NCBI GenBank assembly: GCA_026770705.1
Contig: JANJGN010000017.1
Location: forward strand, 110,050,001-110,114,000
Length of the DNA: 64,000 nucleotides
Direction: 5' to 3'
Source: Isurus oxyrinchus
Taxonomy: Eukaryota
Made by a program: the position numbers and the translations under genes. Every line of letters starts with the position of its first letter. Positions within the stretch are counted from its first letter, which is position 1. Below are positions 41,374 to 62,330 of the stretch, piece by piece. The notes under the pieces were generated by a model, which was not told where the DNA came from, did not search any database, and worked only from the letters and a program-made list of their open reading frames with translations.

Positions 41374-42837
41374 ACATTTAATAATATCCATCATTGTACA
41401 ATTACCAGGATATTGGATTATGTTGATGGTGGTGTTCAAGTATTCTTACAAAAGGCTGCAACTTTTCTATTTTTAGTTTTTAAGTGGTGTGTAACCAAAC
41501 AGGGTCCACTCCTCCCATCATGAGCCTTCATAATGCTGCTCAAACAACAACTGGTGTGGTCATATTGAAAGATGCATTTAACACTGAGCTTTGCATGAAA
41601 TGTTATTTTGAATAGTGGATTATTCTGAATCTACACAATGTGTGATGGAGCTGTTGGATGCAGAACTGCATCTCCATTTGCCATGTGGTGATGTTGGGGG
41701 TGGGGAGGGGGTAGACTGCCAAGCACAGATCATGGAGAGACAAAAAGTTGGCAGGCAAAACTTCTCAAGCAGCTCTATTGCATTCACTTGGACTGGCTGC
41801 CTGGTGGAGAATATACATGGTACAACTGAGGAGCACGAAAAGGAAAGAAGTACATGGATTTGAAGACCTTTTAGACGTTACAACTTCACAGAGGCTTGGG
41901 AGAAGATCACCATGTTGGTTCAGGGATGAAGAATGCAGCAGTAAAAGTTGACAAGGATTTAAAGTTTGGAGTATGGGCGAGAGACAAGATATGAAGAAAA
42001 GAATTGGTGAATTCTTTGTGGATTCATCCTAATTGTTTTTGCTGTGATGTCAGTCCAATATTGTTGATGGTGTTTCAACAAATTAATAAAACAATGCAAA
42101 CCTCAGTGTTAGTGAATTTACACAATTAGTTTTCTTTAAAATTTTGTAGCATATTTTACCTTGATATAGGGTGAAGTAAATGTTAAACACATAGAAGAAG
42201 TAGTGGAACACTTCAACAGGCAATAGTCCAAAACACACACTTAAGATCAGACCTTGGTGTGATCCACAATCTCATGACTTTCTCAATTGTAGAACATTTT
42301 CCAAAATAACCCTAAATTGAATTTAATTTCTTATTCACAGGAGAATTTGCTCCGCTAAGTTTTCGAGATTTGGGTATGCACAGGCTCCCTGCCGGTAACT
42401 ATAAGCTGGCAGGTCGAAAAACATTACAGCTTTATAGTAGAGAGAAAATAAAGAGCTGCCAGTGTTACAGATTGAAATGCAGGCCAGTAAACAACTGAAA
42501 GAGACATGGTAATGCTTCACGTGCAGACCCTTCAATACTGTCAGAGTTTCACCTGAAACATGCATTTGGCTTTTCCCAGTTCAAATGTTAACTGACCTGC
42601 TGAATATTTCTAACATTTCATGCTATTATTTTAACACTTTTAGTGTGCCCCAGTAATTAAAAGCAGTTTTCTGCTCCCGCCCTCCCAAGTTAGGTGTCCA
42701 TTCATGCTTTTGCCTTATGTTTATGATTCATATTGCTTTCCACAGACACAGCTCAAGTGTGGAAGGGCACAATGTTGAGTTGTACTGCTGGACATTTTTC
42801 TCAGTTCAAGTGAGCATTGTATGAAATTTTCACTTAC

Positions 42838-42843
42838 TTTATT
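42838..42843 (-). terminator. Candidate DKK4 polyadenylation signal
   Basis: tttatt on + (AATAAA on -) about 340 nt downstream of the DKK4 stop. Confidence 0.45.
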
Positions 42844-43180
42844 GAAATACTACATTGGGTTGTTCTGCCCTAAACCTGTGTTCTGTTACTTATCCTTGAG
42901 ACTGGGACACCACCTTTGTCCATCAAATACTTTTTCATCTATTGATAAAATTTGACCTAATCAGCTAACGTTTCTTCCACCATACAAGCCATGCTGCACT
43001 TCAAGTGCTTCACCTCACAGAGATCATTTTAATACTTTTTGTGTCCATTTTGATGCATGGGTTCCATATTTTCTGCTTTTTAAAAATATTTAAATTTACT
43101 TTAACTGGTGCAAGAGCCAATCCTGGTAATTTGTCATGTCATTGCACGAAGAGTTCGGGCTGGGGTCTCTCTCTCTCTCA

Positions 43181-43434
43181 CTAGACATGTTGGCAGACCC
43201 GTAGTCTGGAGTTGCGTTGTGATGTGCCTTGGTTTTGATTATGGCAGGCTAATCCTGGGCCACAGTCGCACCGTTGGAAGATCTCTGGCCCCTGTGGGCC
43301 CTCCTTGCGACCTCGTTTCGAGCAAACCTGCCCCTCTTTCAGTACAGGCCGACAAATCTTCGACCAGAAGTGACGAGCACAGCACAATCCAGCAGAACAG
43401 TCTGATGTTCGCAGGCACGTCTCTCCTTCCAACC
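43181..43434 (-). CDS. DKK4: Dickkopf (DKK4-like) last exon, cysteine-rich domain 2 (colipase fold)
   Basis: ttgcag|[39 protein letters not shown]...[15 protein letters not shown]...RLRVCQHV and stop. 10 Cys. The [13 protein letters not shown] and RLRVCQ motifs are DKK4-type. Confidence 0.95.
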
Positions 43435-46099
43435 CTGCAACATATAGAGAGTATTTCTTATCAGTATATGCCAACTAAAAGAAAACACTTCTTTGTCAGC
43501 TGGTATAGTACATACTGAGCAGGACAAAAGAAAGAAAGAATCTCCCCTTCCACCTACCCCTATATTATATAGTTCAAGTCTCAATCAATGTCAGCTATAT
43601 GGGTACAGTACACCAACAGAATAAAGGAATAATTCATTTGGAAATGGTATTTTATAGTTTGTGTGTGTCAACTCCTGTATATGTAAAGTACACACCAAGT
43701 GAAAGAGAGCAATTCACTGCTGACCCATTTGTACAAGTTATATGTCTTCCAGTGTTAGCTACTCTATGTTTATAGTACTCCCCCTGAAGAGGAATCTTCT
43801 TGTGTTTGCTCAATGAGCTTTTTCTCTGAACCTGCATCCAGCCACCCAAAGTTGTCTCTCATACTGAAGTTTATTTTGTTATTTTATTTAGAATCATGCA
43901 CATGTCAAAATATCTTCAAATCTTCCCAAATGATACTCCAATAGTTTGTGGTTCCTGTTAACTTATTCGAAGTTAATTTCACTTACATTTCATCCGACAG
44001 ACATGTATTTTTCTGTAGCTTTAGACCGTGAATTTCTAGTATTCAGAAAGAACTTGCATTTATGTAGCTCTGTTTTTATAAAAGAGCTTTTAAGTCCTGC
44101 TTTATATATACATATTTGTCAAACTTGAGTGTGTATATGCTTCATGATTTTGATGTAAAGCAGTCACTTGGAAGTGAAACTCATTTTAGTTTGTTAATGT
44201 ATCTCATAAGCAAACCTTCATTAATTTAATTGGTTTACAATTGTTCTCATTGTCGTATAGATTTCCCATGTTAACACCTGTAATTGGCATTTTCAGCCTG
44301 TCCTACTGTTTATTCTAGTGAGATTGGAAATAAATACTTCAAGAATGTGCTAGCAATGTCCAGGAGAGGAAACCTTCACAAATGCATTGACAACACTGCG
44401 GACGAAATCATATCATATATGATTAGGTCATCCTAAAACTGTCCAAGAATTGGTTTATGAGATGTCCTTGCAACACATTACAGCAAGGTAAATAGTCTGA
44501 GAGTGATTCTATAGTAAAAATGAAGACTCCATGATTAAATATTCATTGCAGGATGCAAAGGTAAGAACTTTGTAATCATATCTCTCTGATGATTTTTGTA
44601 TTTTGTACTGCTTACATAGCAGCAATGTGTTTAACCTTAAATGTGGGCATAGTGCTAGATAGCACTCATGCAACATTGATTTATGTCAGTAGATTCAGAG
44701 GAGTAGATACGAGGGTAAAGTTCCAGTAACATGAGGTCAATTCTATTTTAGCAGAGTTGCATGAATATTTAATTAAGGACACAACTGGTGGTCATATGGA
44801 TGAGCAAAGTTAGTGGACTTAAAACGCTCTGGACACACCAGTTTGGATGGCGTTGGAGCTACACAAAAATATCAGCTGTTGGATAGAAATAGAAATTGGA
44901 ACATTAGTCCTGGAGATTCCAAGATTACCTCAAGGGCTTGGGAGAAATCTTGGAATGTTTTTATTCCAACCTTTCAAGAGATGAAATAAGTTGGTTGTTT
45001 TCATATCTACACAGTCACCTCTTGAATGGATGGATTCATTGGCTGATTAGCAATCTGACAGATCTCAACCATTGTAACCATCCTTTATGACAAGAGGGTT
45101 TTTAATGGACTCCCATCACCCACACAGGGGTACTCACACCCATCAGGCACAAGTATTCCATAGGTTATTGACCTAGAACTCAGAGCCATAGCTCCAACCC
45201 CCAATAAGCGGGACTGTCTGATATGGAGTGTGAACCTTACACCTTCTGACGCACAAATGTGAATGCCCCCACAAAGACAAAGTCCTAACGAGTTGGTAGA
45301 AGTCAGCAACAGTGACACTTTACAGAGACGGTAATGAGGATTTGTTTCAATAACATGAAAGTCTTTGTTTCTTGTTCCATATTTACTTGTGTTATTCTTT
45401 ATAGAGTTGTACTGTTGTAAGAGATCGTATAGAAAATGTAAGATTTCTTGTTTTTTTAGAAAATATTGTTGGTGACCAAGTGTGTCTTTTTCCCATCTTA
45501 TTGTTTGATTTTGAACAATTTCTATTTGTTAACAAAGGGAAAGGTGGTTTGGACTAGTTTGATTGCCCATGGAGGTGGGAGAGAATTTTTCCAGATTCTT
45601 TTACCATGTATTTGGGCTCGATACTACTCCATTCCTTCAGAATTCTCCATTAACCCTATTGCTTTGACCAAGCTTTGGTCATCTGTCCTAATATCTCCTC
45701 CTCTGACTCAAATTTTGTCTGATAATATCATGCTTAGTACCTTGGGATGTCTTACATTGTTAAGGGTGCTATATAAATACAAATTATTGTTGGCAGGTGT
45801 GTACAAAGTAACTGTATCCAGCAGGCAATATATTGTGAACCATTACTTATCCTATTTTGGTTGATGTTATTATTTAGTAGTCTCTGTGCAACATTTCAGC
45901 AAAACCCAACAGTCCACAGAAAATATCTCAACAATATCTCAATCATTTGTGACCATGCTTGATCTACAAATTAGAGTATTACATTTTCAAGAGTCTTACA
46001 TATCATCACTCTATTGAGAGTATTTCAGAGATATGAAACTTAATAGCTTCATGGTCATTGAAATTGGCTTTCACACCCTTTAAAAAATTGTTTTAATGG

Positions 46100-46570
46100 G
46101 AATCATAGAACAGTTATGACACAGAAGGAGGAAATTCAGCCCATTGTTTTCATGCTGGTCACAAAGAGCGCCCCAGCTTAATCCCACCTTCCTGCACTGG
46201 GTCTTTCGCTCTCCAGGACATGGCTCTTCAAGTAGACATCCAAATACTTTTTAAATGTGGTGAGAGCTTCTGCCTCCACCACACTTTCGAGCAGTGAGCT
46301 TCAGGGCCCTACAGCCCTCTAGGTGAAAAAATATTCTTCATCTCCCCTCTAACTCCTTCCACCACGTATTTTTAATCTATGCCCCCTGGTTATTGACCTC
46401 TCTGCTAAGTGAAATAGGCCCTTCCTTTCTACTCTGTCTTGGCCCTTTATAACTTTATATACCTCATTTCAATCTCCCCTCAGCTCCCTCTGTTTCAAAG
46501 TAAACAACCCCAGTCTATCCAATCCTTTCCCAGGCTGTGGTCTAACTAGTGTTCTATACAGTTAAAATCT
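46100..46570 (-). mobile_element. CR1 3' fragment
   Basis: gaatcatagaacagttatgacacagaaggagg...aatctcccctcagctccctctgtttcaaag. Confidence 0.65.
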
Positions 46571-48496
46571 CCCTGCTCTTGTATTCTGTGATTTGTTCCA
46601 GCCAAGAATAAATACATTGCCAAATACTAACCATTGGAGTAATTATATTTTATAATTAGTCAGCCAACCATACCAGATTGAACCCCAATAAACTTTGTCA
46701 CAGAGCAATGATACAACTGGGGCTTTTTATAAAAAAGCTTTTCCAACCTCTCTGATTGTGGAAATTAACCAACTTTTGTTCACCTTATAGTTATAAACAA
46801 TTTGGGTCTAAACCATTCAGAACTCTGGAAAAAATCACAGATTCTGCTGTGTTGAGTTAGTTGATTTCCACTTAGATGGAAACAGAGGCACTACAATTAG
46901 TCCAAATGCTTGTGCACAGGCGAGTGGCAAAATTAAGGTTCTCAATGGTGATCACGATCCAGTATTCAGCATGGAGTGAGAACAGGATCAGACTCAGCTG
47001 TGGAGTCTCCTGCAGGGCAACACTCTGCTGACATTCCAATATAACAAATGAGCACATGGATGAATACCAGACGGCAACTGTTGCTCATGAAACAGTACCT
47101 CAGCAAAAGACAGTGGAGTAGAGTTTCCACAGGCTCTTCTGAACTCCTGCTGTAACTTGAGCAGAAGATCAGAAGAAATCCCAGAGAAATGGCATATGAC
47201 AGGAGATTAGGAATCTCCCTCCTCCAGAAATTCTGCCGTGTCTTCAGGAGACAAAAGAAGAAAATTGGTCATGGCAGAGAGAGGACAGTAAAGTTTTCTT
47301 TTAGAGAAAAAACATACCTCATTCAGCCAAACAGAAACATTCCTATTTCTGGTTAAATGAAGAAGGTGTTGGTCAGGTGTAGTATTGATTGCATACCTGA
47401 GGCATGATTTTTTCGACCCAATATCTATACAATCAATAATGAGACCTGGGGCTTAAGCTTGACACTGTACTGCGGTTTACTGAAAAGTATCATGTGACAC
47501 CACCTGATTGCCCTCTTAACTAGATGTGAGTCTTGGGCCATAAACCAGGCGACAGATAAATGGACACTGCTCAATTCAACATTGTGCATTCACAGTAATT
47601 TACCCTTCTTGATTTGTGAAGTCCAAAGGTGCATCCCAAGCTATCTTTCAATGTAACTAATTCCCTGAAAATGGTTGCTAACTCCTTGAATGCCCAAAGG
47701 TTACCATGGAATTGGATTATTCTGGACCACTTGCTACCTGACAACTGGTTCAAGCACCTAGAGCTAAACTCCAAGTCAGAGGCTACTGACCACCAAGATG
47801 TGAGGCAATCCTTGACTTTGTCCCTGCTCACAGACCTCAGAAGTTGCTGTCAATCAGCTTCACCGCCCCCGGCTGGCTTGCTTCTTTAATATATTTTAAG
47901 TTCCTTTGAAAACGTGTTGGAACAAAAGTCATGAACAAACTGCAGGACTTTTAATTACATGGATCAGCAGCCATTTCATCGTATCAAAGACTAACAATGT
48001 TTATTGAATCCCTGTGGCCCAGAGGCTTCAAAATAAAAAGCTTGGCTATTTAAATAGCTAACATTAACCAAAAGGGGTCAAAACTCCAGTACGCATTCAC
48101 TGAATTTCAAGTTCCTTAACTGAACTTCTGTACTTTGGAGAAACAATCAACAGAATTCAACATTTACCTCATCTGTACTATGCTCAACTGTTTAAAAATG
48201 CTGATAAAGTAATTTACAAAAATCCTTTATTTTTGACAAAACTTTTGTGTGTATGATCAAAAACTAAGCAAAAACTTGTACCATCTGCTGTTAGATTGTG
48301 AAATGACCGTCAACCTATTTATTCTCTTCCAATTTGGTAAGGGAAAGGAAATAAAACAGTAATGTAAATAAGTGAGAGGGTAATCTGCACCTCACACTGA
48401 CTGACCTTTGTCGTAAAACAAACCAAATTTATGATGACTGTTGGAATTGAAAGAAAATGCACCAGGTTGTTGACTGTCCATAAATGTATGAGGAGG

Positions 48497-48801
48497 AACA
48501 AAAACAGAATTACCTGGAAAAACTCAGCAGGTCTGGCAGCATCGGCGGAGAAGAAAAGAGTTGACGTTTCGAGTCCTCATGACCCTTCGACAGAACTTGA
48601 TTTCGAGTCCAAGAAAGAGTTGAAATATAAGCTATTTCAACTCTTTCTTGGACTCGAAATCAAGTTCTGTCGAAGGGTCATGAGGACTCGAAACGTCAAC
48701 TCTTTTCTTCTCCGCCGATGCTGCCAGACCTGCTGAGTTTTTCCAGGTAATTCTGTTTTTGTTTTGGATTTCCAGCATCCGCAGTTTTCTTTGTTTTTAT
48801 C
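48497..48801. mobile_element. Penelope-like (PLE) pLTR-derived fold-back insertion, young
   Basis: Perfect 131-bp inverted arms (48497-48627 / 48633-48763, loop taagc) plus a 38-nt unpaired tail. Perfect 14-bp TSD aatgtatgaggagg (48483-48496, 48802-48815). Confidence 0.8.
48663..48701 (+). ncRNA. Minimal type I hammerhead-ribozyme-like motif with variant core (mirror copy on - at 48559-48597)
   Basis: AGTT-CTGTCGA-A-GGGTC(ATGAG)GACTC-GAAA-C-GTC-AACT. Stem I AGUU/AACU, 5-bp stem II, palindromic ACGU stem III, GUC cleavage triplet; core has U at A6. Confidence 0.6.
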
Positions 48802-50585
48802 AATGTATGAGGAGGTCCTGCCACTAAGCTTTGCAGGCTTGTTCGCACAGTGTTTGGTCTGATTGCCTTGTGGAGGGCAATGACTCCGCAGTGCATTGAT
48901 GGTTACATTCCAAGCCCTACAGTTTAACATGTGGTGAAACATTCAGAAGATTCACCTCATCCCAAAAGCAAACTCTCCACATACTTAATTATAAACTTCT
49001 GGAATTAATTCACAAGATGTATTTATAAAGTTGTGGTTTGTAGAGCTGTATTCTCTCCACAAGATGCTGGAGAAGTGCTTTGTTTCTGCATTAAAACTAT
49101 TTATGAGGTGAAGAGGGGTAGGAGAATAGCTATGCTGTTACGTTTATCTCATGTAATTGTTAAGCTAATTTCTAGTTTTTAAATTTGGTTATTTTTGAAA
49201 GTTTCATGAGATCCCCTCCTGAAGGTGGTGCCTGTTGTTAGTGTACAGTCACACTGCTTCAACAGCCCACCAGTTTCTCATTCAAGTGGTCGGTTACTCT
49301 TCATATGTAAGCCCAGAGAGTAAGTGTGGATAGGCTGTTGAATTACATCAAAGTAAAGACAATCCTGTCCACTGCTGACATTCCTCCCGCCACAACTTGT
49401 CACTTTGAGCAGGATTTTCTGGCTGCAATATCTCATTAAACTGTTCAAAAAAGTAATGCAAAGAATAAACACTTCTGTTCAGCTCATCATGTAGACAACT
49501 TTGCAAAAAATATAAATAAAAGGCAAGAATTAGTCTCCACCATTCCCTGCTTTTTGATGACGCTTCTACCAGTTTCCATCCACCTTGCTCAACATCTTTG
49601 TCATAGATACCCATCTCAGACATGGACAGTGACTATTGCTCTAAGGAGATGGCCTGCCCCACCTTCAGCTTGTCTAGCAAGAACTTAACCATCATTAACT
49701 TCCTTGCCTCAAAGGAGAAAGGCCATGCTGACAGGTTTTTATTGATGCTTTTCTGGCACTGACCACTGAAGAATGGAAGAGGAGCCTGTATGAACTATTG
49801 TTGATTGCTGCCTTGTCACCGGAGATGCATCTCAGATCCATTTGCAAGGATAGGTAAATACTGTGTCACTGGGCCTCCCAGCTTGCGTTGTTCTCCAGAA
49901 CTAGATCATCTATTCCCAACACAGCCTGTACTACTTCCAGGTACATACTCTTCCTCCTCTGCTTCATTCAGTCTAGCGAAATCATAAACGAACACTTTGC
50001 AATTTTGTTACATCTAAAGAATATATGAAATTTCCTTCCCATCCTCAACCCCCACTTTTCCATTTTTGCTCTCAAGCATCTACTTTTCCATTCCTTAAAC
50101 AGCCTTTCCTGGTTCCAGATATCTGCCTTGTCCTCTGCCCTTACCCAAAGTACTGGCTGACCCTTCCCAACATGTTTTGAGATACCCACTCCCGTGCTAA
50201 CAAAACAGTTTTATCCGGTTTTAACTATCTTCTCTGGTGAGGTCCACAGATACTTTGCAATGTTTTTCACTGCAGGTAGTGATGCTGACTGTAAGGCATC
50301 AAACATAGTACTGCCTGGCCAGTGAGCTATTAAACTGTGACATGTAAAACACAATAAGTCAATTACGTTTTCTTGGCACCAATAATTGCTACAGGATTGA
50401 AACCAAATTATGCCTTTAGCAATGAAGGAGAAAATGAATATTGGATTTCCATAGCTATAAAAATAAATTGTTTGAACTTCATCCAAGTCAGATGGTAAGT
50501 AATAAAAAGCTCATTGCCATTAAATACTGTAATTACAGACTACCATAGGGAGAGCAGTTAGTGTGATTGTTGAGATACAATTCAG

Positions 50586-50997
50586 GTGTCAGCCTCAGCT
50601 TTGCCTCTGTGTCAGAAGGTTGTGAGTTTAAAGTCCACTCTAAAGACTTGAGTACATAATCTAGGCTGACACTTTAGTGATGTACTGAGGGCATGCTGAA
50701 TTGTTGGAGGTACTGTCTTTTGGAAGAGGAATTAAACCGAAACCTAGTCTGTCCTCACAGATAGATATGCAAGATCCTGTAGCACTATTTAAAGAAGAGT
50801 AGGGGATAGCTCTCTCAGTGCCTCGGCAACATTTAGCTACTACCAACTTGACTAAATCAAATTTTCTGATCATTTAGTTCATTGTTGTTTGTGGGGACCT
50901 TGCTGTACACGACTTTTTTGCCACTTTTCCCTACATTGCAACAGTGACTACACCTCAAAAATACTTAATTGGCTGTAAAGCACTTTGAAGTGTCTTT
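50586..50997 (+). mobile_element. tRNA-derived Deu-domain-like SINE
   Basis: Head gtgtcagcc..gagtttaaagtcc; body gtactgaggg..ttggaggtactgtctttt..aagatcctgtagcactattt..aagagtagggg resembles the DeuSINE central domain. Confidence 0.65.
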
Positions 50998-51518
50998 CTT
51001 GGTAATATCCCTGGAGGGTTTGGAACAGTGCTTTGCAGCAGCATTTTACAAATTACTTCAATAACTTCTGCTGTTGTAAATTTCAAAACAGAAGCCATTT
51101 AGTCAAGATGAAGTGGACGGAGGGGGTACAGAGGGCAGGGGACAAGTATTCTGTTAGTCTCCGAAATTAGATTTAACATTGGTTGTTGGAGTCCTAGTTA
51201 AAGACCATTCATAAAAGTGATTTTAAGGATACAAACTGGGAATGGCAAAGGCCGATTGGCCAGCCAGTGCAGTTCCTTCCATGTTCCACGTGGAATCTGC
51301 TCTGATATATACCAACCAACCAACCATGTAATCCCTTGAGGAAAAATGCTACACAGATAAATTCCCTGATATCAAGTTCCAACTTTTAAAAGTTTGAAAA
51401 GGTTTTGTTTTTATGTCCAGTATTTGTTCATCAGTATATCGGTAGCAAAGTGACATTAACAGTTCATCAGCCAATAATGGTAATTCTGTCATGTCAAGAA
51501 GCCTCAACATAAAATGAT

Positions 51519-51739
51519 GATGAACCCAACCAAATGCTATTTTTTTTTTTTGCTTGAAGCTCCAAGAAGTAGAAATAAAATAGAAATAAAGTCAAGCAAG
51601 CCAAGAGAAATATTTCCATGCGCTTATCAAAAAACATTTTTGTTGGTAATGTAAGCAGGGGTTTGACGGAAATCAGGGCACGCTTCTCCTATTCATTGAT
51701 CTCGCCTCAGCTTTTTGGGAAGCTTTTTGCCTGCACACA
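51519..51739. repeat. Left arm of ~220-bp inverted repeat flanking DKK4 exon 3
   Basis: Reverse complement of 53175-53391; about 20 substitutions plus a poly-T length difference by manual alignment. Confidence 0.92.
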
Positions 51740-52366
51740 AATCCTACGTGACTGAAATAAATCCTTGCTGCAAAGGTCGAAAAGTGAAATGGAGAAAAAG
51801 ACTTGCAATGGACCAGCTTCTACAATTCTACCAGCACATAGAGCAATTGTGAATATAGTACAGTGTATAGCTTTCAGTAATAACTTGCAGTCCTATATGG
51901 AATTAGGTCTCAGATCAACCATGATCTCAATGAATGGCAGATCAGGCTGGAGGGGCTTAAATGCCTACTCCTATTCCAATGTTACAGTCAATTGCACAGC
52001 TGGGCTCTGAAAATGGAAGAGTGTGTGATTTAAAGTATTCCGTTAAAGGGCACCATCAATAATTTCTGGCACTGAACTCACATTTCTGTTTAACTCCCAT
52101 ATTTTATCACAATTTCACTCCAAGCAGTGAATGTTTATATCAAATTACTCATATTTTAATGGAGATAATCTGCTGATTTTGAGCAGGATTAAAGGACTCC
52201 CCAGTGTGGCCACTGATGTGTCCAGGTCTTTACTTTCCAGGAACTCCAATGTAACATAATCATTTAGCCTCAGGGTATTTCTCATGTTGAAGTGGAGTAA
52301 AAACCCAGGTAAAGCAGAAGTGGCATAAATCAAAAGTGGGCAGCTAGAGATGGTCGCATCTATTAC

Positions 52367-52525
52367 CTTTGCTCATTTGTGCTTTGTCGAGTTTTTCGTT
52401 TTGATTCTTCCGCCGAGTTTCCTTTATTTTTTGAGTCTTGGCCCTCTTGCTACCCTTTGTTTTCTGTGATTGTGTAGCCTCAGATGGCTTCTCCGCAGTC
52501 TGCTCTTCTGATCGTGTGCATACAT
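52367..52525 (-). CDS. DKK4: DKK4-like exon 3 (end of CRD1 plus basic linker)
   Basis: cttttag|AT GTA TGC (D-V-C, as in human DKK4 CVNDVC) ... ATG AGC AAA G|gtaata. 159 nt, phase 1-1; joins exons 2 and 4 in frame. Confidence 0.9.
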
Positions 52526-53174
52526 CTAAAAGGAAGAGAACAAAACACACATCTGTCAGAAATTGCCAACGCCCCTTCCTCCCAGCCCCCACCTTCCCGA
52601 GGGATATATCTTCTCAAACAATTTCTGTACTTTACCACGAATTGTGTTCACAAGATGGGAAGGCTTTTAAAATGAACTTTATTGTGTGACACTTAACCGT
52701 GGTAGGTGTAGATTTACGCAAGATGCAGCTGTATATTAAAAATATTGCCCTAGGCTAGTCGAGGATGAGGGCAAAGGAGTTAAGATTAAAGATACTTTTC
52801 AAAGGTGTATTTCCAAGCAACTTTCTGATGAAATGTGAGTGGAGTTAAAGATTCTCAACTTTATACAGGACTCAACTTCACAAGAGGAGACAGTCAATTT
52901 CCCTGTTGAATGAATAACCAGGTTGGCCACAACAATTGCATTCGGTCATTACAAGTGTTCACTCGCAATAATTTGCTACATATCCTGTGTATGTTCAATC
53001 ATCAAGGAGTATTTTTCATGTGATAATGTTCTTTTCTCTTGCTGTCGATCCCTTTTTGAACACACATTTTCCCAGTCAGAGAGCAGCTAACCTCTTCCCA
53101 AACCTCTGCTAATGTAGTAGATGGTCGCTATGCTCATTGTTTCTCTGAATTTTCCTATTGCATTCCTGTCGAGC

Positions 53175-53391
53175 TGTGTGCAGGCAAAAAGCTTCCCAAA
53201 AAGCTTAGACAAGATCAATGAATAGGAGAAGCATGCACTGACTTCTGTCAAACCCTTGTTTATATCACCAACAAAAATGTTTTTTCATGAGCGCATGGAA
53301 ATATTTCTCATGGCTTGCTTGGCTTCATTTGTACTTTATTTCTACTTCTTGGAGCTTCAAGCAAAAAAAATAACATTTGGTTGGGTTTATC
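53175..53391. repeat. Right arm of ~220-bp inverted repeat flanking DKK4 exon 3
   Basis: tgtgtgcaggcaaaaagcttcccaaaaagct...cttcttggagcttcaagcaaaaaaaa is complementary to 51519-51739. Confidence 0.92.
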
Positions 53392-54477
53392 CTACACACT
53401 CTGCCTCCCCCTCTGTCCTACCTCAAAATCACTGCTTCTCAAGCGTTCAAACTCCTTAATTTTCTCAGATCTTCCTTCCTCCAATAGTCTTTTGGCGCTT
53501 CCAAACTTAATAAAGACCCTTGATTTTTTCTCCCTCCTTATGATGAAGCTATGCTTTCTACCTTCCCGAAAGGCAGATGTGACAATTAAATCCATGGTCA
53601 CCAGTTTTGCTATGCATTCTCCCTTCTTTACTCTCAAGTTGTTGCATCTTGTAGAAACATAAGAAAAGGAGATGGCCATTCGGGTCCTCAAGCCTGTTCT
53701 GGCATTCAATTAGATTACAGTATAGGATTCTCCCTCCAATCGACAATATTAACTTCCTTTCTGTAGTGACTTTAACATAAAAACAATACCAAAATATTTC
53801 ATGAAGAACACAAAAGGAGAGATTGGGGATTGAATACCTGATTTAAAATGAGGAGAGAGAAGTGGAGGGGGTTTAGCAAATTGGGTCTAGGCAACTGAAA
53901 GCTCTACATGCAATGGAGAGGTAAAAGGGAGGAGACAACACTCAAAAGGTCAGAGTTAGAGAACCAAAGGATGTCCTGATATGTGTAGTTGGAGGTGGTT
54001 ACAGTTCGAGGTCAGATAGGAAAGATCATGGAAGGATATGAAGACATGAATGAGGTTACATTGATATTCTGGAAGTGGAAGAGTCAGTGGAGTGGGGGTG
54101 TTGGGGGGTGGGGGGCGGGGGGTTGGGGGGGGTGGTGTGGCAAGGGGCAGATTATTTGGGAATGGAAGCATTTCAACCATATGAAAACAGCTACTTGTGG
54201 CCTGAACTTACTTTCTACACAGGACGTTGTGCCTGTCACTAAATCCAATCCAGCCTTGTGTCACTAGATACCATGATGAGACACAGATTTGCTAGTAACT
54301 CAAAACCAAATGGTACATTTGAAAAAAACCCTCTGCTGCACTGAGGCACACTGCAGTCTTTTAAGTAAAAAAATTAAATAAATAACAGTTCACATTTAAT
54401 ACCTTCTGTATGTGATATGCAATATATAGTAAGTGTAAAGCAATCACCTGATAGTGTAAACATCTTGTTGTCCTAGT

Positions 54478-54691
54478 AAACAGAATTACCTGGAAAAACT
54501 CAACAGGTCTGGCAGCATCGGCGGAGAAGAAAAGAGTTGACGTTTCGAGTCCTCATGACCCTTCCACAGAAGTCATGAGGACTCGAAACGTCAATTCTTT
54601 TCTTCTCCGCCGATGCTGCCAGACCTGCTGAGTTTTTCCAGGTAATTCTGTTTTTGTTTTGGATTTCCAGCATCCACAGTTTTTTGTTTTT
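54478..54691. mobile_element. PLE-derived fold-back insertion in DKK4 intron 2
   Basis: Same family with inverted arms. TSD tgttgtcctag (54466-54476, 54697-54707). Confidence 0.78.
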
Positions 54692-56302
54692 ATCTCTGTT
54701 GTCCTAGAGCTTGGTAAATGTGCACTGATGGGAGTTTCTAACTCCCAGTTACATGACATCTGCTTGAGATTTTTTAGCGCTACATAATTTTCCATCCTGG
54801 TATGTCTGTATGCATGTAGTTTGAAGAGGGATCCCCAGTTGTAGTTGCAAATGAGGGCACTTGTTACCTCATATCTGGAACACATTTCAGGGTACAATGG
54901 TATTGCACCGGGGGAGTTGATTGGTCAAACAACATACAGCACCTTAAGCTTTCTGTGGTGTAAGAGGTAATAAAACTGCAAAATTAAGTAACTTTAATTT
55001 TAAGACAGGGGTAGGATCATAGGTGAGAGTGAAACCACATCAGCATGTTTCAACTATAATTGTTTCTAAAGCTAAATTTGATGATTGACATAATCCCAGG
55101 CAGATTGCATCAGTGGAGAGACCAGCAATGCTCAATGGTAAAGCAGCAGAGGCAGTGGGACCAGCCGCACTTGTAGGCAAATCAGTGTATTGTAATTATC
55201 TCTCACCTGCACCTCCCACCCTATTAGAGGTGGTCTCCATTGGCAGGAAAGTGTAAGTGCAATGTGAAAAGTTTGCATATTCACTATAAGGTGGCATTTA
55301 TAATGGAGACAATGTCAGGAATATGTACAGATGTATGATTTTAAATATCTTACATCATTCTCATCCCTCAATATATATTTTATATGCTTGGAAATTTCAA
55401 AAATACACGCAGTTAATAAATTTTGCATGATATCTGTGCAAAACCCAAGTTTCTCTACCAATTGCTGAAGTATCCATTGCTTCATTTGCCAATTGCACTT
55501 AGAAGTGAAAAACAGTTTCAACACTGTCTCCTGGAAAAATCTAGGTACAGTGCTAACAAAATTCATCCTAGCAAGCAGTTTTTCCTGTGAATGGAAAGTG
55601 AAAGAAGACAGCTGTCTGAATTTAGCAAGTTAAGATTGAGCTGGTTTCAAAGACAAATCAGACCCTTGCTGCATATTTTTCTTTATAGCTTTAAAGTTTT
55701 CATAGGCCCTATCACTCTGCCTGTAGTGCAGTTCGTACTTCAGCTGCATCCTCAAGGTTGGTATGGCCGTCCATTACATTCATCAGTGTAACAGTACTGT
55801 TTTACCTCATTAAGTTTCTCTCCTATTGAAAGATTTGGGCTCCTTGCTGGAATACAATACAGTGGGAGGCAGGGAGGCTTTAGTGCTCTGTCCAAATAGC
55901 TATATCACAGAGCTAATTGCTCCAGTCCCTTATTTCAAGAACCTGTGCCAGGTAACCAGGTAACATTATCATTCCTCCCTGGCTGAGATGAACTAGCTCA
56001 CTAGGAATCTTTCCGGGATGTATATTTATCTCTGTTTGCAGCCTCAAGTCTATCCAAAAGACACACTGATTACATGATAGTGGAATGTGTTGCTTTCCAG
56101 CACTGCATTGGAAAAGTTATTTGCCGCATGCTGAGGGTTAAGCTTGTTTTTTAATGACCCATGTTAATTATGCTTTTGGCTTGACAAAACCCATTTCTGG
56201 GTCTTTAAGTGTAACAACTGAATGTACCTAAAAGGAATAGGGTATATCTTGGTTGAAGATGAATTGATTAGAGAAGAGTGGCCATGAACAAGAAACATCC
56301 TA

Positions 56303-57180
56303 AGGGTTACTATTGATCAGAAGCTTAACAGGACCAGCCAGATATGTACTGTGGCTACAAGAGCAGGTTAAAGGCCTGGAATTCTGTGAGTAACTCACCT
56401 CATGACCCCCCTAAGCCTGTCCACCATCTATAAGGCACAAATAATGAATGGAATGGAATACTCTCCACTTGCCTGGATGAGTGCAGCTCCAACAACACTC
56501 AAGAAGCTCAACACCGTCCAACACAAAGCACCCCACTTGATTGGCACCCCATCCACCAGCTTAAGCATTCACCCCCTCCACTGGTGCAGCAGTGTATGCC
56601 ATCTTCAAGAAGCAACTCGCCAAGCCTCCTTCAACAGCACCTTCAAAACCCATGACCTCTACCATCCATGAGAACAAGGGCAGAATACACGTGGGAAAAC
56701 CACCACCTTCAAATTCTCCTTCAAACCACACAACACCCTGACTTGGGACTTCTTTTTAATTTATTCATCCAGGGGATGTGGGTGTCGCTGGCTAGGCCAG
56801 CATTATTTGCCCACCTCTAATTGCCCTTGAGAAGGTAATAGTCAGCAGCTGCAGTCCTCGTGGTGTAGGTACATCCACAGTGCTGTTAGGAAGGAAGTTC
56901 CAGGTATTGACCCAGTGACAGTGAAGGAATGGTGATATATTTTCAAGTCAGGATGGTGTGTGGCTTGGAGGGAAACTTGCAGATAGCGATGTTCCCATGC
57001 ATGGCCGTTCCTTCACTGTTGCTGGGTCAGAAACCTGGAACTCCCTCCCTCACAGCACTGTGGCCGTACCTACACCACATGGACTGCAGTGGTTCAAGCA
57101 GGCTCAGCACTACCTTCTCGAGGGCAATTTGCGATAGATAAGAAATGCTGGCCTTGTCCATGAGTGAATAAAAAAAAACA
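56303..57180. mobile_element. LINE 3' fragment (+) with an antisense copy of its own tail inserted (about 56752-57002)
   Basis: LSTIYKAQIMNGMEYSPLAWMSAAPTTLKKL. The + copy breaks after ctgacttggga and resumes at gccgttccttcactg. Confidence 0.75.
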
Positions 57181-57330
57181 AAAGAAAGGAGAGCAGGGAC
57201 TGAAATGCCAAGGGATCAGAGATAGAATTATTGATTGCTTTGTTTTTTGAATCAGCAAAGCTGGGGACATAAATCCCAAAACAAGAAAAAGCTACTCAGT
57301 ACTACTTATTTTCCTACTTACTGAGCAAGC

Positions 57331-57546
57331 ACTGCATGATTGGAGAGACAGTACTGAGTGGTTCACTGTAGGTGGGGCAATACTGAAGGATCACTACAAT
57401 ATCAGAGGGGAGGGAGTGCCACACTGTCGTGGCTGGGGGCAAACTGAATAAGTGTTGTCAGTGAGGCAGTAGTAAGGACGCACTGCACTGTTGGATGAGC
57501 AATACAAAGAGAGCATTGCACTTTTGCAGGAGCAATACCAAGGGAT
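57331..57546. repeat. Degenerate ~30-33-bp tandem repeat
   Basis: Recurring cagtactgag/caatactgaag...gggagtgccacactgtc-like units. Confidence 0.5.
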
Positions 57547-57547
57547 C

Positions 57548-57919
57548 ATATAAAATTCTGACAGGGCTGGATAGTCTGGATGCAGGGATGATATTTCCTC
57601 TGACTAGAGTGTCTAGAACAAGGGCTCACAGTCTCAGCATACAGGGTAGACCAGTAGGACTGAGATGAGGAGAAACTTCTTCACTCAGAGGGTGGTGAAC
57701 CTATGGAACTCTTTACCACAGAGGGCTGTGGAGGCCAAGTTATTGAATATATTTAAGAAGAAAATAGATAGATTTGTGGATTCTAAAGCCATCAAGGGGT
57801 ATGAAGAGAGCACGGAAGTATGACATTGAGATAAAGGATCAGCCATGATCATATTGAATGGTGGAGCAGGCCCGAAGGGCCGCATGACCTACTCCTGCTC
57901 CTATTTTTATGTTTCTATG
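57548..57919 (+). mobile_element. CR1 3' end
   Basis: tataaaattctgacagggctggatag...ggcccgaagggccgcatgacctactcctgctcctatttttatgtttctatg. Confidence 0.8.
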
Positions 57920-59364
57920 TTGGAAAGGCTGTACTCACCTCAAGTAAGCTGAAGACACTGATGGAGTATACAGAACAGACTTTAATCAAATACAGCATTG
58001 ACTTGATTTTGGCTTCTGCCTCTCGTTTTGAGTCCTCTGAAGAATACTTGAAAATCAAACCTCCTGTACACCTGAGTTTGTCCACTTCAAAGGTACGTAT
58101 CACCTTGTGATGTATCTACTCCTGAATCCTCTGAAAACAGTCTATTCATATAAACGATTGCAGTTGTTTCAAAGATACTTCTGTCAACCAAGACTACTTG
58201 ACTCAACTGTTCTTGAATCCTTTGAGAAGTAGGTTTATTAATCACCTTTCTATACTATAATTAATAGATCCCTCTGCCTATACACCAAAAAAACCACTCA
58301 TGGCTGATGTTGCCTTTTTATTTCCACTTCCTTACACAATTTCTTGTTGATAATACTCAGAAATTTGAAGCAGAAGATAAGCCATACTTTCTTCTGTTGA
58401 ATCTTACTGCTAACCTGTTTACCTTGGACAACCGGTGCTCCAAGATACAAAGAAGTCCAGTTATTAACCCATAACTTGGCAGGATGCTCAACAGTGGCCA
58501 CTTGGACCTTGGTAGCCTGAAAGGCAGGTTTTACTGAGGGGGTCGCTTCATTGTCTAGGAGGCAGCACTCAGAGAATGAAAGAGCTTGGTTTACTGCTGA
58601 TGTATTGACCCCTGAGCTATGTCACATTTGCAGTCCAACCCTCTTCACCCATGTAAGTAGCAGATTTGCTGCACTATGTACCGCAAACTTCTATTCTCCT
58701 CCTGCCAGCCACTGATTGTTGGCTGAGCTGCCACTTCTTTATATTTTCCTTGCTCCTAAAGATTTCCGTTAAAAGGCAGGACTTATAGAGCAAATTAAAA
58801 ATAGTTGCATGATGTACCAATTCTGTGCTTAACAGAAGATGGAGTATGGGATCAGCTAATTTATTTTAACCGTTTCTCTCCAGGTGACTTTGGTTTCCAA
58901 TCAGTTTGATGGTTTGACACTGACTCCATTCCCTCAGTCTCTGATGAACCATTTCAAAAGTGGATCTTGAGCAAGACAGTGGTTGGATTTGTGGCCCTCA
59001 GCGAACAGTGAGAAGGCAACACCAGACAACATGGAATTGACTTTCTGACCTGCAGTATTTTGAACACTGATGTTCAGATGCCAAACAGAAATGGATTATT
59101 CTAGCTTTAAAATAATGACAGTCAGAAAATCCAGCCATTCAATTACCCAGCAGTGACCTAAGGAGTCAAGTTCATACTTGACACCAATATTATTTGGAAT
59201 CATCCAGCTTCACCACAGGAGGACTGACACACAGCAAACAGCTGGAGCCAGTTTGGTCTGGAGTCCTTTCAGGCTGTAATGCAAAGTGAGCCTACTTCAC
59301 TATAACATGGCACAATAACAGTGATGTTTGGTGAAACAGCATGCTGCTGTTGTTGAATTATTAC

Positions 59365-59515
59365 CATTTAAACAGTGGCTCCCTGAGCAGCACATTTCAT
59401 TCCGTCGGCAACGTCTCCTTAGTCCCCTGCAAGCAGAGCAGATGGGTTGCTCATGATGGGAAGTGAGGCAGAATCTCCCAGGGCCACAGTCAGGATCTGT
59501 CAAGCACTGAATCTC
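59365..59515 (-). CDS. DKK4: DKK4-like exon 2, cysteine-rich domain 1
   Basis: ttttcttcag|EIQCLTDPDCGPGRFCLTSHHEQPICSACRGLRRRCRRNEMCCSGSHCLN G|gtaata. 151 nt. CRGLRRRC is as in human DKK4. Confidence 0.95.
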
Positions 59516-59847
59516 CTGAAGAAAAAATCAAAAACATCATTTCAGTGAAAATTAGATTGGAGCTTCAAATACAGCAGAGGTTAACATTTGTGTGGGGAAT
59601 AATGGAACGCAAGAAAGGGAGTGGGGGATCCTGCAGTGTAATGTTAATGAGGGAATAGTAACCTACACACTTCAAACCTTCTCCAAATATACCCATTCGA
59701 TCCCCAGGAAACTTGTAATTATCTGGACTGGCCCCTAACTCCCCATTGTTGCAACCCAACCTGACCTATTGGTTTGCAGGTTGTCATTGACTTTAAGCCA
59801 AATGATTAAGCTGCCCTTACTCTAGTGCAGTTCCTTAGGTTTGAATA

Positions 59848-60108
59848 GTGTTTGATGGAATATTGTAAGGAGAGTTTTAATCTGTACCTAACCTGTACTG
59901 TACGTGCCCTGGGAGTGTTTGATGGGGACAGTATAGAGGGAGCTTTACTCTGTATCTAACCCTGTGCTGTACCTGTCCTGGGAGTGTTTGATGGGGACAG
60001 TGTAGAGGGAGATTTACTCTGTATCTAACCCCGTGCTGTACGTGTCCTGGGATTGTTTGATGGGGATAGTGTAGAGGGAGCTTTACTTTTTATCTAACCC
60101 ATGTTGTG
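59848..60108. repeat. 69-bp minisatellite, about 3.8 copies
   Basis: Units at 59848, 59915, 59984 and 60053: gtgtttgatggggacagtgtagagggagctttactctgtatctaaccccgtgctgtacctgtcctggga. Confidence 0.9.
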
Positions 60109-60429
60109 TCATTGCTGGCTCCAGGGAAGATGAAATTATCAGTCTGAAAGAAAACTAGCAGGCCACATGAGACCCCCTGCTATTAGAGCCGATTGTTAAA
60201 GACCGTCATTCAGGCAAGTTGAAGAAATAGGGCCCCTTACACTTCCTGCTCAATTGGAAGAAAGTTGTGGCCTTTAGTGGTTGGTATCAGCAAAATAAAC
60301 CTAGGAGATCTGAGAATTTCAAAAAAAAACATGAGCACTGCAGAGGCAAGCACAACAGTTTTGAAATCAGACTTTAACTAGAAATAGTGGAAAGTACCAG
60401 TCATCCCCAAAGCTCTTCTGTCAAAGGTA

Positions 60430-62330
60430 ATTCGGGAAACACATTTCCTAATGCGCCTACGCGAAAACTCTTGATACTTGTCGGCAACCTGGGGCCCATT
60501 GAAATGATAGTCCACCGAGGGAGTCCGGGTCTTTGGGGTAAGATTCCATAGCAACAAATTGCAGGGCGAAGGTTTATCTGTGCGGCCGCTGGGTGGTGCT
60601 GTTTATGCGAGTTCAAGGTTGGCCCCAGCGCAATGCTGGAAAAGCCAGCTCTCCCATCCACAGTAAGCACATCCAGTCGAGCGCTTTTAGTCCTGTGCAG
60701 TGAAAGTTCCCGGAATTACACCGATCGGTCAACTGCTGCCCGGATTGTGCTATTCTCACCGCTTAAACAGTTGACAGTCTGGGTGCGATTATTATTATTT
60801 TTTTTTTATTTTATTTTACGAAGTGACGACAAAGGCTACATTTTTCGGCTAGCACATTTGAGGGGCAGGATCTCACCTGCTGGGGACACAGATCCCGCCA
60901 CTGTACGGCCAGAAATGGACGGGAAATGAGCGCATTTTATTCCCGGCTGCGCCTATCACCACCACCGCGCTGACCAGAAGAGACTGAGTTAGACTGGTAG
61001 AGCAGAAATTATGCTTGAAATCCGGGTGTATGTGCTCAAGTTAACCCCATCCCCCAGCTCGCCGTGTCGAATCGATTTGACGCTAAAGAGTTGTGCAGAG
61101 ATTTTTTTTTTTGTTTCCCCATTTGGTAATGGGGTTACAGAGCTCAGACACCAGCATGGACCAGCTGGGCCGAGTGGCCTGTTCCTGCCTGGTGGGCAAA
61201 ACGTGGACGAATGCGGAACACGGTAAACCAGCCTCTGGAAGAGAATTCGGGGTAAAAATAAATCTGGAGGTGACACTGTGGGGGTGGGGGGGGGGGGGCT
61301 GCAGGAGAGAGAGTGAGAGAGAGAGGGAGGCCAGAGGTTAATTCAGGATTTGTAACGCCCAGTTTAGCTTATTTCCGAGGGGGAAGGGACCCAGAAGGGA
61401 GACTGAGTGGCTGGTGGCACAGCTCCGACCTGCTCACATCCCCCCAGCGCTTCCCAAATAATGTGTTTCTGTCATTTCACGCGTAATAATGATCCAGGAG
61501 GTGCTGTAGCTAGCCTCGCGATGCACAGGTTAGAGAGAATCTTAACCCCACGTGTTTGTGGAGGGAAATAGGATTGAATAAGCAGGGATAAAGACAAAAA
61601 AAAAACTGCAGATGCTGGAAATCCAAAACAAAAACAGAATTACCTGGAAAAACTCAGCAGGTCTGGCAGCATCGCCGATGCTGCCAGACCTGCTGAGTTT
61701 TTCCAGGTAATTCTGTTTTTGTTTTGAATAAGCAGGGGTTGGACCGACAGGATTCGTGTTTTGTGCTCTTTTCCATTGCTGTAGAGGATCCAGTCCAGGT
61801 GCTGGTATGCTATATACAGATATTAAAAAAAGGATCGACTAACTAGAATCTGGCCAAATTGTATTATCTTCATTAAATCTTCTGCCTGCCACTTTTTTTT
61901 TCCAGACTATTGTATTCTCTGTTGTGCTGTTTGTTCTTCGTGTTATCTCGCATTTGCTCTCACCCGTACTCGGCACCTTCTTGCCGTGTCTCTCTCTTTC
62001 TTGGTCCCTCTCTTTCCTCTCGTTCTTTATTTTGCTCTCTCATGTTGCTCCCCGATTCCGTCTGTATCTCACTGACTCCGGCTGCCTCTGGCTCTCTCTC
62101 TCTCTCTCTGTGTGCCTGTCTCTCGTTCAGGTTCTGCTGCGACCAGATCGGCGCTTAGTTTCGACAAACAAATGCCGGTTGCAGTTCCATACTGCGTCCT
62201 TTTAAACTGACCACATCACCCACCCCCCACCCCGTTCCTCCTGACTTTCAGAATGTTGGAGCTCTCTTGCTGTACTCTTCCAGATTCATTTATTTGGGAC
62301 CGCGCTGCCTGGCGGAATCCGATTACAAAG
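60430..62330. promoter_or_regulatory. CpG-rich region 5' of DKK4 exon 2; probable promoter / first-exon region
   Basis: Visibly higher CG dinucleotide density than the CpG-depleted flanks; largely non-repetitive; TCF/LEF-type TACAAAG near 62324; two GTGAG donor-like sites on - (60876, 61963). Confidence 0.5.
61588..61723. mobile_element. Short PLE-derived fold-back insertion
   Basis: 51-bp perfect arms centred on 61675 plus ~36-nt tail. 14-bp TSD ttgaataagcaggg (61574-61587, 61724-61737). Hammerhead segment absent. Confidence 0.78.

What the first reader, a model, noticed from the sequence alone, without database searches (positions are those of the whole stretch)
51519..53391. DKK4 exon 3 sits at the centre of a ~220-bp inverted repeat
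Seen: 51519-51739 and 53175-53391 are reverse complements at about 90% identity. They lie 627 and 649 nt from the two ends of the 159-nt exon. The arms match no other repeat I can see in the window and show no TE termini. The exon is phase 1-1, so skipping is in frame and removes the linker and the last Cys of CRD1, fusing CRD1 to CRD2. Known: flanking complementary intronic sequences promote back-splicing, exon skipping and ADAR editing, and inverted repeats can mediate inversions. Inference: a possible RNA-structure switch (circDKK4 or a linker-less isoform), or a DNA inversion that could flip exon 3. Mismatches show no G-U strand bias (about 8 vs 7), so selection on pairing is not demonstrated.
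Basis: partly seen in the sequence, partly recalled or inferred. Interest (0 to 1): 0.7.

Follow-up and report, generated by a model that had tools for sequence, protein, structure and literature searches.

The report
Old inverted DNA copy around DKK4
In a shark's DKK4 gene, a 220-base piece of intron also sits backwards on the other side of exon 3, most likely as an old scar of DNA repair; the two pieces are predicted to pair in the unspliced RNA, but they are decaying like ordinary intron and no effect on splicing has been shown.

Summary
The arms 51519-51739 and 53175-53391 are 89% reverse-complementary and lie 627 and 649 nt from the in-frame 159-nt exon 3 of DKK4. The arm matches only these two places in the 5-Gb genome. 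A relative about 2% diverged has both arms at single-copy depth and shares 18 of 20 arm-to-arm mismatches, so the duplication is about five times older than that split and is not being homogenised. There is no G-U bias (7 vs 7) and no significant extra conservation (p=0.31). Six other local inverted duplications lie in 1.4 Mb of the same genome. The two that could be polarised are inverted copies pasted in nearby, the known repair-mediated or template-switch class, and the size and spacing here fit that class. A hairpin is predicted, and an accidental 220-bp inverted copy in mouse Tbxt does cause exon skipping, so some skipping is plausible. The RNA test was void (no DKK4 exon cover in 3 runs). 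Exon 3 remains constrained and has a strong acceptor. The scan noted this class before on other DNA. Verdict: a real but ordinary scar, and a cheap natural test case.

The parts
51519..51739 (.). Left arm, in DKK4 intron 3 (the 3' arm in the pre-mRNA); single-copy sequence
53175..53391 (.). Right arm, in DKK4 intron 2 (the 5' arm in the pre-mRNA); reverse complement of the left arm, 197 of 221 columns identical
51544..51579 (.). Longest perfect core (36 bp, partner 53335-53370). Its length is as expected from random placement of 20 mismatches (p=0.42). Contigs of organisms A and B break here
52367..52525 (-). DKK4 exon 3, 159 nt, phase 1-1; encodes the last Cys of CRD1 and the basic linker; pyrimidine-rich acceptor (18 of the 21 nt before AG); 0 differences in organism B
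59365..59515 (-). DKK4 exon 2 (CRD1, 9 Cys)
43181..43434 (-). DKK4 exon 4 coding part (CRD2) with stop codon
51895..51984 (.). High-copy repeat fragment inside the spacer (1350 candidates); a related fragment lies in the opposite orientation at about 53651-53715

Best explanation
The two arms are a single-copy, 89%-identical inverted duplication of intron DNA around DKK4 exon 3, shared with a related shark and likely made by one DNA-break repair or replication template switch that copied about 220 bp from one intron backwards into the other. Shown: the repeat, its low copy number, its presence in the relative, and decay with no sign of homogenisation or selected pairing. Inferred: the origin as a proximal repair-mediated duplication, with the spacer left in place, about five times older than the split from organism B. 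Which arm is the donor is unknown. Predicted: the arms pair in nascent pre-mRNA. Any skipping, back-splicing or A-to-I editing would be a minor, unselected by-product, with exon 3 usually included.
For: Copy number: 2 candidates and 2 matches in G000. The same search finds 1350 candidates for a neighbouring 80-90% repeat. Arm depth in run X9 is 26-40x, like the flanks, against hundreds to over 100,000 at repeats. Age and neutrality: arm-arm K2P is 0.099, against 33 of 1685 non-arm intron sites (1.96%) differing between A and B. The arms differ at 5 of 438 sites (Fisher p=0.31), and 18 of 20 arm-arm mismatches are present in both species. Mismatch classes are 7 G-U, 7 A-C and 6 other. The sense duplex is -320.3 and the antisense -316.5 kcal/mol. 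Background: of 23 spaced inverted repeats in 1.464 Mb, 7 are local duplications including this one, so 6 others in 1.4 Mb, 4.3 per Mb (95% CI 1.6-9.3). In the 2 cases examined against collinear copies of a host repeat, the extra arm is an inverted copy inserted 470-710 bp from its source, with the spacer not inverted and about 10-20 bp lost. Size and distance fit repair-mediated duplications (mean 162 bp, max 619 bp, mean distance 1.2 kb; PMC2671141, passages). No target-site duplication. Exon 3 is constrained: 0 of 159 changes in B (3.1 expected; Poisson 0.044, Fisher 0.11), 50 of 51 residues shared with the basking-shark protein, and no acceleration in 8 relative-rate counts. All 15 chondrichthyan DKK4 cluster representatives keep a linker.
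Against: No empty ancestral site was seen, so the insertion mechanism here rests on analogy. Neither flank is a repeat that could polarise it. The arms change slightly less than other intron between A and B (1.1% vs 2.0%); this is not significant, but the test is weak. This spacer (1435 nt) is the longest of the 7 local cases (others 226-876 nt), and the exon is centred to within 22 nt (p about 0.018 after the fact). In mouse, a perfect 220-bp inverted copy made the skipped Tbxt isoform exceed the full-length one (PMC10901737, section 9), so 'minor' is an assumption. The background sample was hand-picked, not random, and the other six arms were not searched genome-wide.
Confidence: 0.62

Rival explanations
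1. Same accidental origin, but the hairpin really loops exon 3 out in a large share of transcripts (Tbxt-like). That would lower full-length DKK4 or yield a linker-less form or circDKK4, tolerated or selected.
For: Predicted duplex of about -320 kcal/mol with 205 pairs. Mouse Tbxt insRCS2, a 220-bp inverted intron copy, gives majority skipping and about 10% shorter tails; an Alu pair of 228/297 identity gives low to moderate skipping (PMC10901737, passages and section 9). Skipping is in frame. Exon-3-less DKK4 models exist for 3 of the 106 proteins with both domains found (Mus caroli, dromedary, a lizard 'isoform X3'), so the form may be makeable.
Against: The acceptor is pyrimidine-rich, and in the human Alu survey a stability-skipping correlation held only for weak-acceptor exons (PMC13019027, part 1 of Results read). 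Skipping removes the Cys equivalent to human C90, which pairs with C79 (PMC6078440, passages), leaving an unpaired Cys. No G-U bias, no homogenisation, and exon 3 is still constrained. None of the 15 chondrichthyan representatives lacks the linker, though these are mostly species not known to carry the arms. The amniote exon-3-less models may be annotation gaps.
Confidence: 0.2
2. Two separate insertions, in opposite orientation, of an old low-copy or nearly extinct mobile element, or the ends of one.
For: 16 of the 23 spaced inverted repeats in the sample are made of repeat-family copies. Copies under about 75% identity could escape the genome search, which warns that no match does not prove rarity.
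Against: No third copy in G000, in 864 kb at word size 7 or in 1.46 Mb. Single-copy contig depth at 85% likeness. No target-site duplication or terminal poly-A. No Rfam match over the arms. One element cannot enclose an ancestral exon.
Confidence: 0.1
3. An invertible DNA cassette: recombination between the arms flips exon 3 in a programmed or frequent way.
For: Inverted repeats can mediate inversions (PMC5829575, passages). Contigs break at the 36-bp perfect core, so a crossover inside it would be invisible.
Against: No strand-change joint in 4 DNA runs, and no hybrid arm in X9. Repeated flipping should homogenise the arms, yet 18 of 20 mismatches persist in both species. The longest perfect tract is only 36 bp.
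Confidence: 0.03
4. Assembly artefact.
For: Spurious inverted segments occur in long-read data (PMC5829575, passages on orphan rearrangements).
Against: The arms differ by 10%, and contigs of a second species tile both arms with their own flanks.
Confidence: 0.01

Closest known systems
Repair-mediated proximal duplications (Pace et al. 2009, PMC2671141; abstract and passages read)
   Same: A copy of nearby unique DNA, 221 bp long and 1.4 kb away (their mean 162 bp, max 619 bp, mean distance 1.2 kb); no poly-A or target-site duplication.
   Different: They are defined by an empty ancestral site with microhomology, filler or deletion; I could not see that site here. Their orientation statistics were not in the passages I read.
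Localized non-tandem opposite-strand duplications (Frith and Khan 2018, PMC5829575; passages read) and four-point template switches (Walker et al. 2021, PMC7954356; passages read)
   Same: An inverted copy of a nearby segment creates an inverted repeat with an uninverted spacer; 21 plus 6 such cases among 166 rearrangements in their human data.
   Different: The short-range template switches of Walker et al. are much smaller (median 12, max 128 nt). This copy is old and 10% diverged.
TBXT exon-6 loop-out by AluY-AluSx1, and the mouse Tbxt insRCS2 allele (Xia et al. 2024, PMC10901737; passages and section 9 read)
   Same: A 220-bp non-transposon intron piece copied backwards across an in-frame exon of a developmental gene; insRCS2 itself arose by accident at a CRISPR cut site.
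   Different: insRCS2 is a fresh copy and its skipping was shown by RT-PCR with a phenotype. Here identity is 89%, the acceptor looks strong and no RNA evidence exists.
[quoted passage not shown] 2026, PMC13019027; abstract and first third of Results read)
   Same: Complementary intronic arms within 1 kb of both exon ends.
   Different: The arms here are unique sequence, not repeats. That study found only a small stability difference between skippable and constitutive exons, and no role for symmetry.

Membership tests
Repair-mediated / template-switch proximal duplication | [quoted passage not shown] | tested here: met
   2 of 2 candidates in G000; no third copy; single-copy depth. Copies under about 75% identity are not excluded.
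Repair-mediated / template-switch proximal duplication | Donor within 5 kb, copy about 50-620 bp | tested here: met
   221 bp, 1435 nt apart, against PMC2671141
Repair-mediated / template-switch proximal duplication | Empty ancestral site showing microhomology, filler or a small deletion | not testable with these tools
   The only relative reached has both arms; the flanks are not repeats
Repair-mediated / template-switch proximal duplication | No retrotransposition marks (poly-A tail, target-site duplication) | tested here: met
   No direct repeat of 7 nt or more joins the two ends of either arm; old marks could have eroded
Transposable element pair or TIR element | Dispersed copies elsewhere in the genome | tested here: not met
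Transposable element pair or TIR element | Target-site duplication or element termini | tested here: not met
Loop-out exon-skipping / circRNA element | Complementary arms in both flanking introns able to form a stable duplex | tested here: met
   Predicted only: -320 kcal/mol, 205 arm-arm pairs in the minimum-energy fold
Loop-out exon-skipping / circRNA element | Skipped or back-spliced RNA observed | tested here: inconclusive
   3 runs guessed to be RNA gave no listed piece or joint on exons 2-4
Loop-out exon-skipping / circRNA element | Effect lost when one arm is removed | not testable with these tools
   Needs a minigene or genome edit
Selected RNA structure | G-U bias, compensatory change, slower evolution or concerted evolution of the arms | tested here: not met
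   7 G-U vs 7 A-C; 5/438 vs 33/1685, p=0.31; 18 of 20 mismatches shared. Only two species, so power is low.
Invertible DNA cassette | Both orientations present | tested here: inconclusive
   No strand-change joint in 4 contig sets, but contigs drop rare variants and break at the 36-bp core

The most novel reading that the evidence does not exclude
An accidental inverted duplication became a lineage-specific splicing dial for DKK4, a natural version of the Tbxt insRCS2 mouse: it loops out exon 3, cuts the dose of full-length Wnt inhibitor or makes a linker-less form, and so tunes skin-denticle or tooth patterning in this group of sharks.
Probability: 0.07. Interest if true: 0.7.

Novelty: new member of a known kind. 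Interest (0 to 1): 0.24.

Why it matters
Most likely it matters little: it is one of an estimated 8,000-46,000 similar scars in this genome (extrapolated). It is still a clean natural test of whether a non-transposon inverted copy that has aged to 89% identity keeps changing the splicing of a dosage-sensitive patterning gene, as a fresh copy of the same length does in mouse Tbxt. One minigene pair would answer that. DKK4's role as a Wnt inhibitor is from PMC6078440 (abstract and passages); its role in skin patterning is recalled, and its expression in shark skin was not checked.

Tried and rejected
RNA: no RNA holder was listed for 51300-53600. Three runs guessed to be RNA (X20, X23, X24) laid on 42300-61000 gave only intron and repeat pieces, and none of the 15 listed joints (8 more hidden) joined exons. 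This is void, not evidence. A similarity between 53115-53173 and the 3' end of exon 3 (score 40.5, p=0.03 in one of 8 tests) suggested a chimeric insertion, but 10% of 600 control comparisons from the window score as high, so I rejected it. A 7-nt direct match next to the inner left and outer right ends was seen by eye and judged chance by a rough estimate, not by a call. Capture by a Penelope-like insertion (lead e1-9525990): no target-site duplication, and the nearest such palindrome is 1.1 kb away. Gene conversion in B: at 51668 and 51681 B matches the partner arm, but 51672 and 51677 between them do not; both sites are CpG in A, so mutation in A or parallel CpG decay in B suffices. Polarising donor and copy by flanking repeats failed. 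Paralog control: in the stretches fetched around 3 other DKK genes (30, 30 and 20 kb) the only local inverted duplication lies beyond exon 2 of the C8 gene, not across exon 3. Rfam gave 2 hits at E about 0.5, far below cut-off and not on the arms. The POLB-family search found only a distant locus, and the PDB search gave no VDAC3 entry, so synteny support is 'a VDAC', not specifically VDAC3. Literature: 'DKK4'+'shark' gave 15 papers, 'DKK4'+'isoform'+'exon 3'+'splice variant' 2, and the shark/circRNA/inverted-repeat search 23, 10 listed. No listing described this element; I saw titles and abstract starts only. No supplements were read. In one search, 19 difference rows were hidden; 22 of 23 differences on the long X9 contig and 1 of 9 on the rightmost one were visible, so a change in 53365-53391 or one more in the right arm cannot be fully excluded.

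Full report
Observation. Self-comparison of the window gives an inverted match between 51519-51739 and 53175-53391: 221 columns, 89.1%, E 2e-78. There are 217 paired sites, 20 substitutions (14 transitions, 6 transversions) and a 4-nt gap at a poly-T run. The exon 52367-52525 (minus strand, 159 nt, AG/GT) lies 627 and 649 nt from the inner ends. It is exon 3 of an intact four-exon DKK4 gene: exon 1 is about 2 kb beyond the window, exon 2 is 59365-59515, and exon 4 ends at the stop near 43181. The closest named proteins are chondrichthyan DKK4, exon 2 matches the solved human DKK4 CRD1, and three other DKK paralogs lie elsewhere in G000. Exon 3 is phase 1-1 and carries the tenth Cys of CRD1 and the linker. 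In human DKK4 that Cys (C90) pairs with C79 and the linker is unstructured (PMC6078440, abstract and passages).

Copy number. The arm yields 2 candidates and 2 matches in the 4.98-Gb genome; larger queries over each arm and its flanks give the same two places. The same tool gives 1350 candidates for a 90-bp repeat inside the spacer, so it does see families at 80-90% identity. A word-size-7 search of an 864-kb sample finds nothing else. Contig depth over the arms in run X9 is like the flanks. No target-site duplication was found at either arm. The arm is unique DNA present twice.

Relatives. Of 24 runs listed, all came from two organisms, A (this one) and B (about half of the 31-mers shared). 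I laid 4 DNA runs, one of A and three of B. X9 tiles 50960-54000 in four contigs that break at the same 36-bp perfect core as in A. The left arm of B differs at 4 sites plus one base of the poly-T run, the right arm at 1 visible site, exon 3 at 0 of 159, and other intron at 33 of 1685 sites. So orthologous arms are 98% or more alike between species while the two arms are 89% alike within one; 18 of 20 mismatches are shared. The ratio of arm-arm distance (0.099) to A-B distance (0.020) puts the duplication at about five times the age of the split, if rates are equal. The orientation of the spacer in B is not strictly shown, because the contigs break at the core.

Selection on pairing. On the transcribed strand 7 mismatches give G-U and 7 give A-C; the sense and antisense duplexes have nearly the same energy, -320.3 and -316.5 kcal/mol. 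Of the 5 A-B differences in the arms, 3 break a Watson-Crick pair in B and 2 make B match the partner. Those 2 are CpG sites in A and are not a continuous conversion tract. The arms change at 1.1% against 2.0% for other intron (Fisher p=0.31). The 36-bp core is no longer than chance (p=0.42). With two species these tests are weak, but none points to selection.

Background. I fetched 1.4 Mb of G000: 180 kb of neighbours, 100 kb around paralogs and 1.12 Mb of arbitrary blocks. With the window, 1.464 Mb hold 23 spaced inverted repeats with arms of 100 bp or more, 80% or more identity and a span up to 10 kb. In 7, including this one, no other copy in the sample covers 80% of the arm within 10 points of the arm-arm identity. 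The other 6 give 4.3 per Mb (95% CI 1.6-9.3); 4 of the 6 lie in the arbitrary blocks, and 2 of the 6 have no other match at all. Their spacers would enclose a 159-nt exon at 0.16% of positions. With some 200,000 exons (a recalled vertebrate figure) that means a few hundred enclosed exons if selection does not remove them. I examined 3 of the 6 against other repeat copies; 2 could be polarised, and in both an inverted copy of sequence 470-710 bp away interrupts the host repeat, with the spacer collinear and about 10-20 bp lost. The third could not be polarised.

Mechanism. Shown: a single-copy inverted duplication, old, shared with B, not homogenised. Inferred: one copying event during break repair or a replication template switch pasted about 220 bp of one intron backwards into the other. 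Size and distance match repair-mediated duplications (PMC2671141, abstract and passages) and the opposite-strand non-tandem duplications common in human DNA (PMC5829575, passages); they exceed the short-range switches of PMC7954356 (max 128 nt; passages). Donor and copy could not be told apart. Predicted: in pre-mRNA the arms form a long duplex, 205 pairs in the minimum-energy fold of 1913 nt.

Could it affect splicing? Exon-3-less DKK4 models exist for 3 of 106 proteins in which both domains were found (15 of 121 could not be scored), all amniotes; they may be isoforms or annotation gaps. Against a large effect: the acceptor has 18 pyrimidines in the 21 nt before AG (no splice-strength model was available); loop-out skipping tracked weak acceptors and not symmetry in the human survey (PMC13019027, abstract and first third of Results); skipping would leave an unpaired Cys; exon 3 shows no relaxed evolution; and all 15 chondrichthyan representatives keep a linker. 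The direct test failed for lack of data: three runs guessed to be RNA had no listed piece on the exons.

Comparison and novelty. The element meets the testable features of a proximal repair-mediated or template-switch duplication; the empty site was not testable. It fails the tests for a transposon pair and for a selected RNA structure. It has the shape of a loop-out element, but the defining RNA product is unobserved. Three paper searches listed nothing on this element. Earlier notes of this scan describe the same class in other genomes; they are unchecked and are not counted as evidence. Verdict: a new member of a known kind, interest 0.24. I give 0.20 to a substantial splicing effect and 0.07 to a selected one with a phenotype.

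Noticed in passing
L053:4117-5406, L056:8588-9055, L063:7720-8664, L120:2165-3056, L090:2367-2935, L032:6001-7998: Six other local inverted duplications (121-582 bp, 84-98% identical, spacers 226-876 nt) in 1.4 Mb. Three lie in repeats. That density looks well above the 0.08-0.19 per Mb of repeat that PMC2671141 reports for non-mammalian vertebrates, though the criteria differ; slow sequence decay in sharks could explain it.
   Followed up: partly
L032:6001-7998: A 582-bp, 89% inverted duplication with an 876-nt spacer begins about 2 kb past the stop codon of the neighbouring VDAC gene; it could lie in or near the 3' UTR.
   Followed up: no
The first two give further 94-nt, 98% complementary pairs across exon 3.
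   Followed up: no
G000:C8:39604194-39614910 (L014, L016): A fourth DKK1/2/4-type gene (49% to this CRD2) lies about 60 kb from another VDAC on C8; possibly a paralog lost in mammals.
   Followed up: partly
window:44297-48200: Run X23 (organism B, guessed RNA) has contigs over much of this part of intron 3, up to depth 17, but none on DKK4 exons; could be a separate transcript or DNA carry-over.
   Followed up: no
window:52367-52525: Exon 3 shares a 3-residue deletion with the basking-shark protein relative to most other sharks and rays, and the basic linker is well conserved (76-84% to four other galeomorph and one hexanchiform shark) for a region described as unstructured.
   Followed up: partly
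P0041, P0051, P0125, P0063: Database DKK4 models from Mus caroli, dromedary and a lizard (isoform X3) lack exactly exon 3; a 170-aa deer protein clusters with the dromedary one.
   Followed up: partly
window:59847-60100: 69-bp tandem repeat of about 3.5 copies in intron 1, with very high depth in X20.
   Followed up: no
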